Shown here one piece after another: positions 1 through 5,170 of a stretch of 32,000 nucleotides of DNA. The stretch lies in NCBI GenBank assembly GCA_030606485.1, contig JAUWGH010000001.1, positions 660,001-692,000 of the forward strand, given 5' to 3'. Source of the DNA: Promethearchaeota archaeon (GTDB taxonomy: Archaea > Asgardarchaeota > Lokiarchaeia > Sigyniarchaeales > SOKP01). Both the position numbers and the translations under genes were made by a program. Under the pieces are notes generated by a model. It saw only the letters and a list, made by a program, of their open reading frames with translations, was not told where the DNA came from and did not search any database. Positions within the stretch are counted from its first letter, which is position 1; each line of letters starts with the position of its first letter.

Positions 1-690
1 GGTGCCGGAATTAGTACAGAATCCGGGTTACCAGATTTTAGAGGGCCCGATGGATTATGGACTCGCCGAGATAAAGGATTACCTCCCCCTAAAACCACAA
101 AGCCTTGGCATATGATTGAACCAAATCCTGCACATTATGCACTTGTAGAATTGCAAGATATGAATAAATTGGATTTTGTTATCAGTCAAAATGTCGATAA
201 TCTGCATTATAAATCGGGAATTAAGCTCGAAAAACTTGCAGAGCTACATGGAAACATGACTCTAATGAAGTGCCTTCAATGTAACAAAAAAATGACGTTC
301 GAAGATGCTGGATGGGATCAAGAAAAATGGGGAAAAGGTTATCGCACTTCAAGAATAAGAAAGGGACAGCCTGCATGTCCAAATTGTGGAGGAAGGTTAA
401 TAAACTCAATTGTAAATTTCGGAGATCCATTACCACAAGAGGATTTGCGTAATTCTATAGTACATACTGAAAAATGTGATGTTTTTCTTGTAATAGGTAG
501 TTCCCTTGTTGTTTATCCAGCTGCAGAAATGCCCGCTATAGCGTACCGGGCTGGAGCAAAATTGATTATAATCAATAAAGGAGACACTCCATATGATAAC
601 AGGGCTGATATTAGAATTAGTGAAAATGTTGCGGAAATTGTCCCGTCGATAGTAGAAAAAGTAAAGCAGATAATAAGTAAAAATTCTTGA
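1..690 (+). CDS. NAD-dependent protein deacylase, Sir2 family (5'-truncated by window), SIRT6/7-like architecture
   Basis: Frame is open from base 1: GAGISTESGLPDFRGPDGLWT; also SQNVDNLH, ELHGNM, Zn ligands CLQC...CPNC, GSSLVVYPAA, IINKG. The ORF-track start at 112 is internal. Confidence 0.95.
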   Translation, partial: GAGISTESGLPDFRGPDGLWTRRDKGLPPPKTTKPWHMIEPNPAHYALVELQDMNKLDFVISQNVDNLHYKSGIKLEKLAELHGNMTLMKCLQCNKKMTFEDAGWDQEKWGKGYRTSRIRKGQPACPNCGGRLINSIVNFGDPLPQEDLRNSIVHTEKCDVFLVIGSSLVVYPAAEMPAIAYRAGAKLIIINKGDTPYDNRADIRISENVAEIVPSIVEKVKQIISKNS

Positions 691-806: not shown

Positions 807-1997
807 TTAATTATTGAAAAGTATTTCTAAGTGAAGGTCGTTAAGTGGATAAGAGATACATGGGTGGATGAAATTATTATCACGGTCAGCTTCTCGAATT
901 ATTACTTCAGGTGGAACAAAAACCTTACCAGATAGAAGTTTAGTTCTACAAAGCGCACACTCTCCCGAACGACAACCGCTATTGATTTGGATTCCCAACT
1001 CTTTTGCACGTTCAATACTATTTAATAAAGGTTCAACACATGATACCTCAATTACTTTTTTTTCTTTGAGTCCTGATTTTATGAAATCTATTGTAATTTG
1101 AACTTTTTTAGATACATCAATCCCCTCTGGCCATCCCATTGTTTTCGTTATATCCTTCGGAACACCAAATAGCTCGTGAGAGATCCTATGATTGGGTATT
1201 CTCAACTCTTCTAGTTCTTTTAAGACGAATTCATACATTTCTCTATTCCCAACAATATAGAAAAACTTATCATCAACCGATCCGATAAATTTCATGATCT
1301 TATCTTTCGATATAAATCCAGTTTCTCCGGTCCAATCTTGACTTGGTTCTGAGAGTATAAATGTACCCTTTATATTGGGGCGCCTTTTTTGTATTTCTTC
1401 GAGTTCTTCCCGAAACAGAATATCCTCCTTAGTTAAACACCCAAATAATAACCAAATATTGAGGGGTACAACTCTTTCCGAAAAATCCCGCAACATTGAC
1501 ATGAATGGAGTAATACCGCTGCCTCCCGCGATAAACACTAAATCTTTCCCGTGAAAGATTGGGTTATAGCAAAAAACACCCAATGGACCGGTTGCCTCAA
1601 AAAGATCACCAACTTTTGCGTTATCAAAGAGATATGGGCTTACAAACCCACCATCTTCCTTTTTTATGCCTAATTCATAATATGCAAGTTGATTCGGAGA
1701 AGAGACAAGCGAGTAAGGACGACTCGTTCGGACGCCATTAATTTCTACAGTCAAGCCAATATATTGACCTGCTCGGAAGGGTGCCAAAACTTTCGTAGAT
1801 CGTGCAGGAACAAATCGGAATAACTTCGTATCTGGTGAGAGTTGTTTTATGTCTGAGATTTGCAACCATAATTTATCGGGATGAAGGCGATCACACAAAT
1901 TTTCCAACCCATCGAAATATGTTGGTATGGGTTGAACTTCTTCACGCCACTGCTTTAATTTTCTAGCATATGTAAATCTTTTCAAATCTTTGAACAT
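807..1997 (-). CDS. FAD/NAD(P)-binding oxidoreductase with C-terminal 2Fe-2S ferredoxin (PaaE/Hcr/phthalate dioxygenase reductase-like)
   Basis: RPYSLVS FAD motif, AGGSGITPF NAD motif, C-terminal CRSGECALC...C 2Fe-2S motif. Confidence 0.9.
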   Translation of the reverse strand: MFKDLKRFTYARKLKQWREEVQPIPTYFDGLENLCDRLHPDKLWLQISDIKQLSPDTKLFRFVPARSTKVLAPFRAGQYIGLTVEINGVRTSRPYSLVSSPNQLAYYELGIKKEDGGFVSPYLFDNAKVGDLFEATGPLGVFCYNPIFHGKDLVFIAGGSGITPFMSMLRDFSERVVPLNIWLLFGCLTKEDILFREELEEIQKRRPNIKGTFILSEPSQDWTGETGFISKDKIMKFIGSVDDKFFYIVGNREMYEFVLKELEELRIPNHRISHELFGVPKDITKTMGWPEGIDVSKKVQITIDFIKSGLKEKKVIEVSCVEPLLNSIERAKELGIQINSGCRSGECALCRTKLLSGKVFVPPEVIIREADRDNNFIHPCISYPLNDLHLEILFNN

Positions 1998-2001
1998 CTT
2001 A

Positions 2002-3552
2002 TTACCACCTCTTCTTTTTTAGATCTTCTAAATACGCAGCTGCGGCCATCCTCCCACTATTTATGGCAGGCGAGAATCCACCACCAATTCCAATCCAAGC
2101 TCCCGCTAAATAAAGCCCTGGAATCGCACCTCGGCTACCTAATCGAAGCATAGGACTATCCATAATACTTTGAGTATATCCATAGATGGCACCATCCATA
2201 CTCTTTGAATACCGGTAATATGTTACAGGGGTTGCTGCTTCTAACACCTCGATGTATTCCCGTAAATTGGGAGAAATTGTTCTTTCGACCATTGAAACCA
2301 TATCATTTGTAATCTCGTCCTTGATACGATGATATTGATCTGGTGGAACAGAATGCCAAACATTACCCATCTGAATTGTAGTGAGAACGAGTTGAGTAGT
2401 TCCAGGGGGAGAAATGTTCTCAGACACATGGTTATAACATGCCGCTACTATAATCTTGGGCGTTTCCAATTTTTCAACAGTCTGGTACATATCATCCATG
2501 TCATCTGTGGCGTTAATAAATGTCTCGTGTGTCGTCAATCCTAATTTATCTGGAGGGGCGTTTAATCCAAGGTAGACTGAAAATGCTGAGTTTCCAATTT
2601 TCGGAGCATATATTCGTCTTTTATAGCTATCAGATACAATATCTTCCGGAAGCATCTTCATTGTTGTACAGATAGGGTTGACATTTGAAACAACTACCTT
2701 AGAGCGATAAACATCCCCATTAAGAAGCTCAACACCAGAAACTCGTCCGTTTTTAACTAAAATTCGATTCACTAAAGCGTTGTATCTCACTTCACCTCCC
2801 AGTTCTTTCAAGGCATTTATCATACAACTGGTCAATGCGTGAGATCTTCCCATTGGGAAAACTGAGCTGCGCAATAGACTCATTAATGTTATTATAAAAT
2901 AGAGAGAGTTCAATTGGGAGGGTGGTAACCCGTCATATCCCCATATCTGAGCTAACACTGCCATTAATCGCGGATTTTTAAAAAATCGCTTGAATATATC
3001 CTTAAGTGTGAGACCTCCAATACGCGCAAGCCACGGATGCTTAATAAGTATTGATAACGGTGAAGCTTTACCTCCTTTAGATGCAACATAGTTGAATCCT
3101 TCTCGTATCTTCTGAGCAAGTATCTTAAATTTTTCGATTCCCTCCCTTTCATCAGGAAACAACTCAATTAATTTATTGAAATATGTATCTACGCCTAATG
3201 GCATGATAACATCGTAGCCATCGTAAAATACACTCCGATAATATTCATTTACATATTTATATTTGAGCTTCTCAGGAAAAATTTCTAATTCTTCAAAAAA
3301 TTCATAAAGTGAGCCTCGATTATCTTCAGTACCAATATCACTCAACACATGTAGAGCACCTTCAAACTCAAATCGACCTCGCACAAAAGATGTCGCATAA
3401 CCACCAGGTACATTATGTTTTTCGAGTAATAACACTTTTTTTTCCGAGAGAGCGAGCTGACATGCAGCACCAAGTCCACCTAATCCCGCTCCAACGACAA
3501 TTACATCATAGGATGAATCTGGTAAACTTTCATCATATTTTTTTTTTCTCAT
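2002..3552 (-). CDS. Phytoene desaturase / all-trans-retinol saturase family FAD-dependent oxidoreductase
   Basis: N-terminal GAGLGGL...LLEKHNVPGGYATSFVRGRFEFE, C-terminal GLYLAGAWIGIGGG; ends 4 bp before the reductase start (probable operon). Confidence 0.88.
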   Translation of the reverse strand: MRKKKYDESLPDSSYDVIVVGAGLGGLGAACQLALSEKKVLLLEKHNVPGGYATSFVRGRFEFEGALHVLSDIGTEDNRGSLYEFFEELEIFPEKLKYKYVNEYYRSVFYDGYDVIMPLGVDTYFNKLIELFPDEREGIEKFKILAQKIREGFNYVASKGGKASPLSILIKHPWLARIGGLTLKDIFKRFFKNPRLMAVLAQIWGYDGLPPSQLNSLYFIITLMSLLRSSVFPMGRSHALTSCMINALKELGGEVRYNALVNRILVKNGRVSGVELLNGDVYRSKVVVSNVNPICTTMKMLPEDIVSDSYKRRIYAPKIGNSAFSVYLGLNAPPDKLGLTTHETFINATDDMDDMYQTVEKLETPKIIVAACYNHVSENISPPGTTQLVLTTIQMGNVWHSVPPDQYHRIKDEITNDMVSMVERTISPNLREYIEVLEAATPVTYYRYSKSMDGAIYGYTQSIMDSPMLRLGSRGAIPGLYLAGAWIGIGGGFSPAINSGRMAAAAYLEDLKKKRW

Positions 3553-3721
3553 AATAATATCTCAAACGGAATCATTTAAAAAATATGCTTAGTGTGATTC
3601 TTTTTTGACATTTTTGGATAAAGGAACTATGGATTGAAGATCAAGCTTTATTCTACTTGTATCTCAGATAATTACATATATCAAAATAAGTATAGACAAT
3701 CTCTTACTAATAAAGAGTAAT

Positions 3722-3730
3722 AAAAAAAAA
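3722..3730 (-). terminator. Putative archaeal oligo(T) terminator (T9 on minus strand)
   Basis: A9 run on the + strand immediately past the stop of 3731..5170; archaeal intrinsic termination uses oligo-T tracts. Confidence 0.4.
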
Positions 3731-5170
3731 TTAAAGTTTTAATTTCTTTAATTGTTCTTTAATTTTCAGTGTTTTTTCAGGAGTAAGGTCGTAGACTAAG
3801 AGGAATATAATAAATCCGATGAAAGTTAAGATCATGGGAATAAACGCTGTGTGTAGAAGAATTCCGAAATTCGCCAATTCAGTTTGAGTTGTTAAATTCG
3901 GATCAAAACCAGTTAATTCGTGTACAATGGCAAATATCAGTCCTTGAGCAATAAGGGAGAATTTATTGAAGAATGTGTATACTCCCATTAAAGCACCTTC
4001 GATATGTTGACCTGATTTAACCGTAGCCTCATCAATTGTATCAGCCAAAACGGGATTTCTGCCAATTCTTAAAGCACCTCCACCGATTCCGAGTAGGATA
4101 CAACAAATCACCATACCAATTAAAGATTTTGCAAACATGAATGGCAACAAGAAGATAGTGTTGAGAAAGACCCCTATTATTAACATCTTGCGATTATTTT
4201 TGATTTTTTGAGAAAAGATAAGCCAAGGCCAAAGTGATCCTAAAGCACCCAAGATAAATCCTGCCAATAGGAATATGGAAGTTTCTGCTTCCGCCTGTAA
4301 AAGATATTTAGCCACATATTGAATTGATGCAGTTAAGCTTGCCCCTATTATTGCGTCCATTAAAAATATTAAAATTACAACTACAAAATTTTTCTGAGTT
4401 AACACAATTTTAAGGGTTTTCCAGAAAGATATTCTCTCTTTTTCTTCCTGTTCTATAACATACCTTGCCCTCAACTCCTTTGATTCGATATGTCCTGGAA
4501 TAATTGTTAAAAAAATAATCATATTAATGCCCACGAATATCCAAGCCATATTCGTATATGACTGGCGGTCTCCATATGTAATAAGCAATGGAGGAATCAT
4601 AAACCCCACTGCGGTCCCTACAAGAGATAAAGCCATACGAATTCCACCAGCTTTGCGCCTGTCAGTATCTAAACGGAATTTATCAGGATACAATGCATAA
4701 TGGTTCAATGAGACTATCGTAAAGAATAGCTCGAAAAGGCATGTAGAAATTAGGATCCATGCAAAATAAATCCATACTCCACTTATAGGATCTAGATATG
4801 GTGGAGAAAATATAGCAGCAAGTGTAAGAATCGCAGGGATTCCCCCTATTATAATTAATGGAAATCTTTTGCCATACTTTTTCCAAAATCTATTAGGACG
4901 ATCTGTGAAATATCCTACAAGAGGATCGTTAATAGAATTCCAGATAGCATAAATAATATAGCCAAGTGCCACAATCCATATATTTAATTTAACTTCAGTT
5001 TCCCAAAATAAAAAGTAAAAACCCCCAAAAATCCCGTTAAAAATGTCAAATAAAAAATCCGCCATACCAAACGAGAACATCGAACGATTCGATTCATGGC
5101 GTATGGTAATGTCTTTTATAATAAAAAGCTCTTTATTACCTAAATTATTTGTATGATCCTTATTTTTCAT
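3731..5170 (-). CDS. MFS transporter, glycoside-pentoside-hexuronide (MelB/MFSD2-like) family
   Basis: About 12 hydrophobic segments; WNSINDPLVGYFTDR and GKRFP motifs; LADTIDE cytoplasmic-loop motif. Confidence 0.9.
   Translation of the reverse strand: MKNKDHTNNLGNKELFIIKDITIRHESNRSMFSFGMADFLFDIFNGIFGGFYFLFWETEVKLNIWIVALGYIIYAIWNSINDPLVGYFTDRPNRFWKKYGKRFPLIIIGGIPAILTLAAIFSPPYLDPISGVWIYFAWILISTCLFELFFTIVSLNHYALYPDKFRLDTDRRKAGGIRMALSLVGTAVGFMIPPLLITYGDRQSYTNMAWIFVGINMIIFLTIIPGHIESKELRARYVIEQEEKERISFWKTLKIVLTQKNFVVVILIFLMDAIIGASLTASIQYVAKYLLQAEAETSIFLLAGFILGALGSLWPWLIFSQKIKNNRKMLIIGVFLNTIFLLPFMFAKSLIGMVICCILLGIGGGALRIGRNPVLADTIDEATVKSGQHIEGALMGVYTFFNKFSLIAQGLIFAIVHELTGFDPNLTTQTELANFGILLHTAFIPMILTFIGFIIFLLVYDLTPEKTLKIKEQLKKLKL

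What the first reader, a model, noticed from the sequence alone, without database searches (positions are those of the whole stretch)
1..690. Sirtuin with class IV (SIRT6/SIRT7)-like features
Seen: a very short segment between GLWT and the P..H helix (WTRRDKGLPPPKTTKPWHMIEPNPAH), KLAELHGNM, and an extended loop between the Zn-binding Cys pairs. Recalled human SIRT6: [30 protein letters not shown]...DKLAELHGNM. Typical prokaryotic CobB/Sir2 proteins have a longer helical bundle here. Established: class IV sirtuins are histone deacylases described mainly from eukaryotes. Inference: a possible Asgard precursor acting on archaeal chromatin proteins.
Basis: partly seen in the sequence, partly recalled or inferred. 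Interest (0 to 1): 0.65.

Follow-up and report, generated by a model that had tools for sequence, protein, structure and literature searches.

The report
SIRT6-like sirtuin in a Lokiarchaeon
This is an intact NAD-dependent protein deacetylase of a Loki-type Asgard archaeon that is built like human SIRT6; its family's link to SIRT6/7 and the histone-tail activity of its ortholog are already reported, and the same short form also occurs in sediment bacteria, so an Asgard origin of SIRT6/7 is possible but not shown.

Summary
Observation confirmed. The gene is complete (253 aa, starts 72 nt before the window) in a Promethearchaeota (Lokiarchaeia) genome. Of its five sirtuins, only this one has the 20-residue Trp-Pro linker of class IV instead of the 35-42-residue helical bundle. 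The predicted fold matches human SIRT6 best (TM 0.83, rmsd 2.4 over 238 aa; Sir2Af2 TM 0.70). With the trait columns removed, trees join it to eukaryotic class IV (100/100), apart from class I, III and U. It is the reciprocal best match (53%) of LoSIR2b of Lokiarchaeum ossiferum, which deacetylates Loki histone-tail and yeast H4K16ac peptides in vitro (2026 preprint); a SIRT7-Asgard sister relation was published by Grau-Bove et al. The 'Asgard precursor' step is unproven: the same bundle-less form occurs in Deltaproteobacteria-type and Chloroflexota bacteria (50-59% identical), and eukaryotic class IV is sister to Asgard plus bacteria (92-97% of bootstraps); AU tests reject neither donor. The long Cys2-Cys3 loop is Asgard-typical and is not SIRT6's arginine-anchor loop, which is absent. 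This scan reached the same verdict earlier on other genomes. New member of a known kind.

The parts
1..690 (+). Residues 25-253 and stop codon of a 253-aa Sir2-family NAD-dependent deacylase (SIR2b / class IV-like). The first 24 codons lie upstream of the window (ATG at G000:C10:659929).
   Evidence: Pfam SIR2 E 3.9e-38
1..60 (+). GAGIS NAD-binding motif through SGLPDFRGPDGLW (P35, F37, R38, W44 = SIRT6 P62, F64, R65, W71)
   Evidence: sequence; alignment to SIRT6 3pki
61..120 (+). 20-residue linker that replaces the helical bundle (short helix 43-48, then a Pro-rich strand; W60 in place of SIRT6 F86)
187..198 (+). QNVD motif (preceded by Ser, as in class IV; Thr in all 26 bundle-bearing controls)
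232..258 (+). KLAELHGNM with catalytic His107 (247-249), identical to human SIRT6 over these 9 residues
271..387 (+). Zinc module: C115/C118, 31-residue Asgard-type loop (283-375), C150/C153; no SIRT6 arginine-anchor insertion between Cys3 and Cys4
394..435 (+). RLINSIVNFGDPLP: class IV-type (D/S)(S/T)I(V/I)xFG segment in place of the KP(D/N)VVxFGE of classes I, III and most U
496..519 (+). GSSLVVYP phosphate/ribose-binding motif

Best explanation
A stand-alone, intact NAD+-dependent lysine deacylase of the Asgard SIR2b subfamily, which with a bacterial subfamily forms the prokaryotic sister group of eukaryotic class IV sirtuins (SIRT6/7, plant SRT1). Mechanism: the Rossmann domain binds NAD+, the acyl-lysine enters the cleft next to His107, nicotinamide is released and the acyl group is passed to ADP-ribose (established sirtuin chemistry; all residues present: shown). 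Loss of the helical bundle gives the open, splayed SIRT6 architecture (shown in the model). Its most likely substrates include the lysine-rich tails of this organism's histones, as shown in vitro for the ortholog LoSIR2b (inferred here by orthology), alongside non-histone proteins; removal of long acyl chains through a SIRT6-like channel is a further inference. Which prokaryote gave eukaryotes the gene is unresolved.
For: Motifs and 20-aa linker. AlphaFold2 model pLDDT 93.4: SIRT6 3k35 TM 0.83, Z 29.1, rmsd 2.4 A over 238 aa, against Sir2Af2 TM 0.70, Z 28.4, rmsd 5.3 A over 226 aa. IQ-TREE C20 tree with linker and Zn-loop columns dropped: Asgard + bacterial short forms + eukaryotic class IV 100/100, 100/99 after pruning, 100/100 with all columns. 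Reciprocal best match to LoSIR2b, 53% over 247 aa, one gap; the motif search found that gene in a 6.0-Mb single-contig genome of the same order and its sequence equals the preprint's table. LoSIR2b deacetylates HLoB.2 K9ac, fully acetylated tail and yeast H4K16ac peptides, NAD-dependently, while LoSIR2a and c show little activity on them (10.64898/2026.07.02.735847). This genome encodes at least seven histone-fold genes, two with short Lys-rich tails (MAKKEPAKKKG..., MAKKKPAAKKR...), and two Alba matches. Acyl-channel residues P62, F64, W71, V115, M136, I185 of SIRT6 (listed in PMC8389836) are identical here.
Against: No assay on this protein; 53% identity leaves room for a changed substrate range. 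The ortholog's assay is a preprint and used peptides; LoSIR2a and b also act on a generic substrate, so histone specificity is not shown. Bacterial members without known tailed histones share the same architecture, so the architecture is not itself a chromatin adaptation. SIRT6's acidic-patch anchor (K170, R172, R175, R178; PMC10942634), its N-terminal lid and C-terminal tail are absent; F82 is Thr and M157 has no clear equivalent. Forcing the prokaryotic short forms into class U costs 40 log-likelihood units but was not formally rejected (p-AU 0.061). By plain phmmer score the class U enzyme Sir2Af2 still beats SIRT6 (E 3e-53 against 8e-46).
Confidence: 0.85

Rival explanations
1. Direct Asgard ancestry: eukaryotic class IV descends vertically from the Asgard SIR2b gene, and the bacterial copies are later transfers out of Asgard archaea.
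For: Wide Asgard spread: 46 of 151 sampled genomes at E<=1e-70 in six family groups, including Lokiarchaeia, Helarchaeota-labelled MAGs, Ca. Heimdallarchaeum aukensis and a Freyarchaeum deiterrae cluster. Bacterial copies are patchy: 9 of 251 sampled genomes of the Deltaproteobacteria-type phylum (lower bound), none by a DNA pattern in 201 genomes of another phylum. The bacterial clade nests weakly inside the Asgard set when all columns are used (58/68). AU does not reject eukaryotes + Asgard (p 0.48 and 0.22). Grau-Bove et al. found SIRT7 sister to a Heimdall/Loki clade.
Against: Asgard alone is sister to class IV in 0.6-1.3% of bootstraps; Asgard + bacteria together in 92-97%. Eukaryotes do not nest with the Heimdall-type sequences. 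If bacteria nest inside Asgard while eukaryotes branch outside all sampled Asgard, vertical descent needs an unsampled lineage or a misplaced long branch.
Confidence: 0.45
2. Bacterial source: the bundle-less sirtuin arose in anaerobic bacteria (Desulfobacterota/Chloroflexota or an unsampled group) and passed separately to Asgard archaea and to early eukaryotes.
For: A well-supported bacterial subfamily (96/93 to 100/99), 50-59% identical to the query, as close as several Asgard members, in bacterial gene context and named Deltaproteobacteria, Thermodesulfobacteriota and Chloroflexota. In the full tree an unnamed partial sequence (P0365) is the commonest bootstrap sister of class IV (52%). AU does not reject eukaryotes + bacteria (p 0.42).
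Against: Bacteria alone are sister to class IV in under 1% of bootstraps; bacterial members are rarer, less diverse, and have a 12-residue Zn loop, shorter than in any eukaryotic member.
Confidence: 0.2
3. It is a general metabolic deacylase (acyl-CoA synthetases and other enzymes, or long-chain acyl groups) with no particular role on chromatin in vivo.
For: No chromatin gene nearby: neighbours are an FAD/2Fe-2S reductase, a flavoenzyme, an MFS transporter, membrane proteins and a radical SAM enzyme; neighbours are shared only with three very close relatives. Same architecture in bacteria. No nucleosome-anchoring elements of SIRT6 or SIRT7. pI 7.6. Prokaryotic sirtuins classically act on metabolic enzymes (own knowledge).
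Against: The ortholog is the only one of three Loki sirtuins clearly active on Loki histone-tail peptides, and the genome has tailed histones. The two roles are not exclusive.
Confidence: 0.35
4. Convergence: an ordinary class U sirtuin that lost the helical bundle independently of SIRT6/7.
For: Best phmmer match in the PDB is class U Sir2Af2; AU test for placing it with class U gives p 0.061, not a formal rejection.
Against: The 100/100 grouping holds with the linker and Zn-loop columns removed; further shared characters outside the deletion (SQN, HGN, loss of KPxVV, GPxGxWT); constrained tree 40 log units worse.
Confidence: 0.05

Closest known systems
LoSIR2b (GNAMCCOK_01652) of Ca. Lokiarchaeum ossiferum B35; Asgard SIR2b clade (bioRxiv 10.64898/2026.07.02.735847)
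   Same: Reciprocal best match, 53% identity over 247 aa with one gap; same short linker, same long Cys2-Cys3 loop, same length (253 aa); same Asgard subclade in the tree.
   Different: Different family of the same order, different gene neighbours; this protein itself has not been assayed. The preprint does not use the term class IV and draws no ancestry to eukaryotic enzymes.
Human SIRT6 (class IV; PDB 3K35, 3PKI, 3ZG6, 8G57) and plant SRT1 / protist class IV
   Same: No helical bundle, near gap-free alignment at about 36-46% identity, KLAELHGNM, most acyl-channel residues, best structural match (TM 0.83), one clade in the tree.
   Different: No N-terminal lid (SIRT6 1-28) or disordered C-terminal tail; no Cys3-Cys4 insertion with the arginine anchor; longer Cys2-Cys3 loop (31 against 21); FGD in place of WED; F82 replaced by Thr.
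Asgard clade sister to SIRT7 in Grau-Bove et al. (10.1101/2021.11.30.470311, Fig. 4b)
   Same: Loki and Heimdall members, sister relation to a class IV family.
   Different: That it is the same clade is inferred from the taxa; their sequences were not seen. My trees place it beside all sampled class IV and add bacterial members; human SIRT7 scores far lower than SIRT6 (E 2e-26 against 8e-46) and its N-terminal nucleosome-binding domain is absent.
Class U sirtuins Sir2Af2 (1MA3) and Sir2Tm (1YC5)
   Same: Same size, same Rossmann and zinc domains, same catalytic residues; highest raw phmmer score.
   Different: They keep the helical bundle (linker 35-42 aa); rmsd about 5 A; outside the 100/100 clade.

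Membership tests
Sir2/sirtuin family (PF02146) | GAGxS, QNxD, catalytic HG, four Zn cysteines, FGE/D, GSS motifs in an intact frame | tested here: met
   (131.6 bits against cut-off 24)
Class IV sirtuins (SIRT6/7-like) | Loss of the helical bundle after GxW | tested here: met
   linker 20 aa against 18-21 in class IV and 35-42 elsewhere; model and fold search; feature described for SIRT6 in PMC10942634
Class IV sirtuins (SIRT6/7-like) | Phylogenetic grouping with eukaryotic class IV to the exclusion of classes I, III and U | tested here: met
   100/100, 100/99, 100/100; it is sister to, not nested in, the eukaryotic clade (100/99). AU for the class U alternative p 0.061. Class II and a verified holozoan SIRT7 were not in the tree.
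SIRT6 proper | Cys3-Cys4 insertion carrying the acidic-patch arginine anchor (K170, R172, R175, R178) | tested here: not met
   C150-P-N-C153 here; plant and protist class IV sequences also lack it
SIRT6 proper | Hydrophobic long-acyl channel (P62, F64, V70, W71, F82, F86, V115, M136, M157, I185) | tested here: inconclusive
   six identical, V70L and F86W conservative, F82T, M157 unaligned, N-terminal lid absent
SIRT7 proper | N-terminal three-helix nucleosome-binding domain | tested here: not met
   protein starts 24 residues before GAGIS; domain described in PMC11790868
Asgard SIR2b clade (LoSIR2b) | Orthology to LoSIR2b rather than LoSIR2a or c | tested here: met
   281 bits against 129 and 155; reciprocal among five and three paralogs
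Asgard SIR2b clade (LoSIR2b) | NAD-dependent deacetylation of histone-tail peptides | not testable with these tools
   shown only for LoSIR2b
Class III / CobB and class U | Helical bundle and NCBIfam CobB-type cut-offs | tested here: not met
   all seven NCBIfam models below cut-off; bundle absent

The most novel reading that the evidence does not exclude
The Asgard SIR2b subfamily is the direct ancestor of eukaryotic SIRT6/7 and was already the dedicated histone-tail deacylase: the one Loki sirtuin reported active on histone tails is exactly the class IV-type one (a link the preprint does not draw), the Asgard-specific basic Cys2-Cys3 loop serves as a chromatin contact that predates SIRT6's arginine anchor, and the bacterial copies are transfers out of Asgard.
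Probability: 0.2. Interest if true: 0.65.

Novelty: new member of a known kind. Interest (0 to 1): 0.3.

Why it matters
Class IV sirtuins are core eukaryotic chromatin enzymes. A 253-aa prokaryotic version with the SIRT6 architecture but none of its nucleosome-docking add-ons is a minimal model for what the bundle loss does, and for when histone targeting arose. The family-level link and the ortholog's activity are already reported, so this gene adds a member, not a concept. What is less stated in the papers I could search: that LoSIR2b is the class IV-type paralog, and that a bacterial subfamily shares the architecture, which weakens a simple Asgard-origin story and gives a natural control (same fold, no tailed histones).

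Tried and rejected
Frameshift or truncation as the cause of the short linker: rejected, the frame is intact and hundreds of homologs share it. Contamination by eukaryotic DNA: rejected, 29% GC contig of 913 kb, intronless, 93-96% identical copies in three Promethearchaeota MAGs with the same neighbours. Operon clue: none; upstream gene is divergent, downstream gene convergent, neighbours differ from those of most Loki orthologs; the sigma-70 scan is not informative for an archaeon. Viral members: best matches in viral contigs are only up to 38% identical; not examined further. Plasmid hits H1-H3 all keep the bundle. AU tests for donor were all inconclusive; the constraint class I + class IV was also not rejected (p 0.21). 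The family search around G041 did not hold L. ossiferum; a motif search did. Jiang et al. 2013 was not held, so channel residues come from a review. P0129 was dropped from trees for an internal duplication; 16 long or partial rows were dropped in the pruned trees (listed). Twelve of the 21 eukaryotic class IV rows are unnamed and were labelled by length and clustering. No complex prediction was run: enzyme-substrate pairs are poorly served by it.

Full report
Observation. Window 1-690 is the 3' part of a 253-aa gene that begins 72 nt before the window (G000:C10:659929-660690). The genome is 3.75 Mb at about 29% GC; copies 95-96% identical lie in MAGs titled Promethearchaeota/Promethearchaeia, so the host is a Loki-type Asgard archaeon. 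The genome has five sirtuins; only this one lacks the helical bundle. The W44-P65 linker is 20 residues, against 18-21 in 21 eukaryotic class IV sequences, 35-42 in 21 other prokaryotic sirtuins and 40-42 in class I. Human SIRT6 aligns across it with one gap.

Class IV character. Beyond the deletion the protein shares SQN (Thr in all 26 bundle-bearing controls), HGN, GPxGxWT and the loss of the KPxVV motif with class IV. An AlphaFold2 model (pLDDT 93.4) matches SIRT6 best in geometry: TM 0.80-0.83, Z 29.1, rmsd 2.4 A over 238 residues, against TM 0.70 and rmsd about 5 A for Sir2Af2, whose Z (28.4) is tied. The feature is the one described for SIRT6 (lack of the helix bundle, splayed zinc finger; PMC10942634).

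Distribution. The subfamily is common in Asgard archaea: 46 of 151 sampled genomes score E<=1e-70, among them Lokiarchaeia, Helarchaeota-labelled MAGs, Ca. Heimdallarchaeum aukensis, another Heimdallarchaeota MAG and a Freyarchaeum cluster; it was not found with this query in several other families. It is not confined to Asgard. Nine of 251 sampled genomes of the phylum of a Deltaproteobacteria MAG carry the same short linker at about 50-59% identity, in bacterial gene context, and a homolog search from one such protein returns a large set with members named Thermodesulfobacteriota and Chloroflexota. These have a 12-residue Zn loop. A DNA pattern found none in 201 genomes of another bacterial phylum.

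Phylogeny. With the linker and Zn-loop columns removed, IQ-TREE (LG+C20+F+G4, 81 rows, 191 columns) joins Asgard, bacterial and eukaryotic short forms at 100/100, with eukaryotic class IV one clade (100/99) and the base unresolved. After pruning 16 long or partial rows, class IV is sister to Asgard + bacteria in 92% of bootstraps, 97% with all columns; Asgard alone is sister in about 1%, bacteria alone in under 1%. AU tests reject neither eukaryotes + Asgard (p 0.48, 0.22) nor eukaryotes + bacteria (p 0.42). Forcing the prokaryotic short forms into class U costs 40 log units (p 0.061). Limits: class II and a verified holozoan SIRT7 were missing, and some eukaryotic rows are unnamed.

What is known. 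Grau-Bove et al. reported SIRT7 as sister to a Heimdall/Loki sirtuin clade (10.1101/2021.11.30.470311). A 2026 preprint (10.64898/2026.07.02.735847) assayed three sirtuins of Ca. Lokiarchaeum ossiferum; LoSIR2b deacetylated Loki histone-tail peptides and yeast H4K16ac with NAD+, while a and c showed little activity on them, and Loki and Hod sirtuin fusions restored silencing in yeast. I recovered LoSIR2b from the genome collection: it is the reciprocal best match of this protein, 53% over 247 aa. The preprint does not call it class IV and infers no ancestry.

How it most likely works. Shown: intact sirtuin catalytic apparatus and SIRT6-like architecture. Established chemistry: NAD+ cleavage, His107 as base, acyl transfer to ADP-ribose. 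Inferred from the ortholog: it removes acetyl groups from Lys-rich histone tails; this genome has at least seven histone-fold genes, two with short Lys-rich tails, and two Alba matches. Inferred from structure: most residues of the SIRT6 acyl channel are kept, so long-chain deacylation is plausible. Not shown: any in vivo chromatin role; gene context gives no hint, and bacteria use the same architecture.

Verdict. Real and correctly recognised; a new member of an already described Asgard subfamily that, with bacterial relatives, is the prokaryotic sister of class IV. Donor to eukaryotes unresolved. Earlier agents of this scan reached the same reading on other genomes; I had formed and tested mine before seeing theirs. 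Interest 0.3.

Noticed in passing
L291:5001-6227 (P0363; GCA_004196295.1 contig with Loki-type ribosomal protein genes): A 408-aa fusion of an Asgard profilin-like domain (Pfam Profilin E 0.0016; PDB 5zza E 7e-9) to a SIR2b-type sirtuin, lying with a TPR protein and a second short sirtuin between rpl22 and rps3. A possible link between sirtuin and actin-type proteins; seen in one sequence cluster only.
   Followed up: partly
L010, L011, L012, L013, L014, L040: Many Lokiarchaeia carry two SIR2b copies in tandem, in a conserved block with a PIN-ATPase, a PHP phosphoesterase, tRNA intron endonuclease and an amino-acid permease; the window's copy is single and lies outside that block.
   Followed up: partly
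P0122-P0128 (L122:5001-6410): Bacterial-type bundle-less sirtuins fused behind a 230-290-aa coiled-coil region with weak V-ATPase G / ATP synthase b similarity.
   Followed up: partly
L291:2758-3480, P0376, P0438: A second bundle-less lineage with a short (13-14 aa) zinc loop that groups inside the Asgard set; one copy is on a Loki-type contig.
   Followed up: partly
P0368, P0430: Sirtuins inside the class IV-like clade that have a long (42-45 aa) non-canonical insert at the linker, suggesting secondary re-expansion.
   Followed up: no
L001:11124-14423 (upstream of the window, - strand): Radical SAM/SPASM gene directly downstream of a 634-aa membrane protein that ends in a Cys/Ala-rich tail (GGCACACACAGCACACAGGGR), which looks like a modifiable substrate.
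   Followed up: no
G000:C2:339585-339983: A histone doublet (two histone folds in one 169-aa frame) in this genome.
   Followed up: no
window 807-5170 (- strand): FAD/NAD-binding 2Fe-2S reductase, phytoene-desaturase-like flavoenzyme and MFS_2 transporter converge on the sirtuin gene; shared only with the closest relatives.
   Followed up: partly
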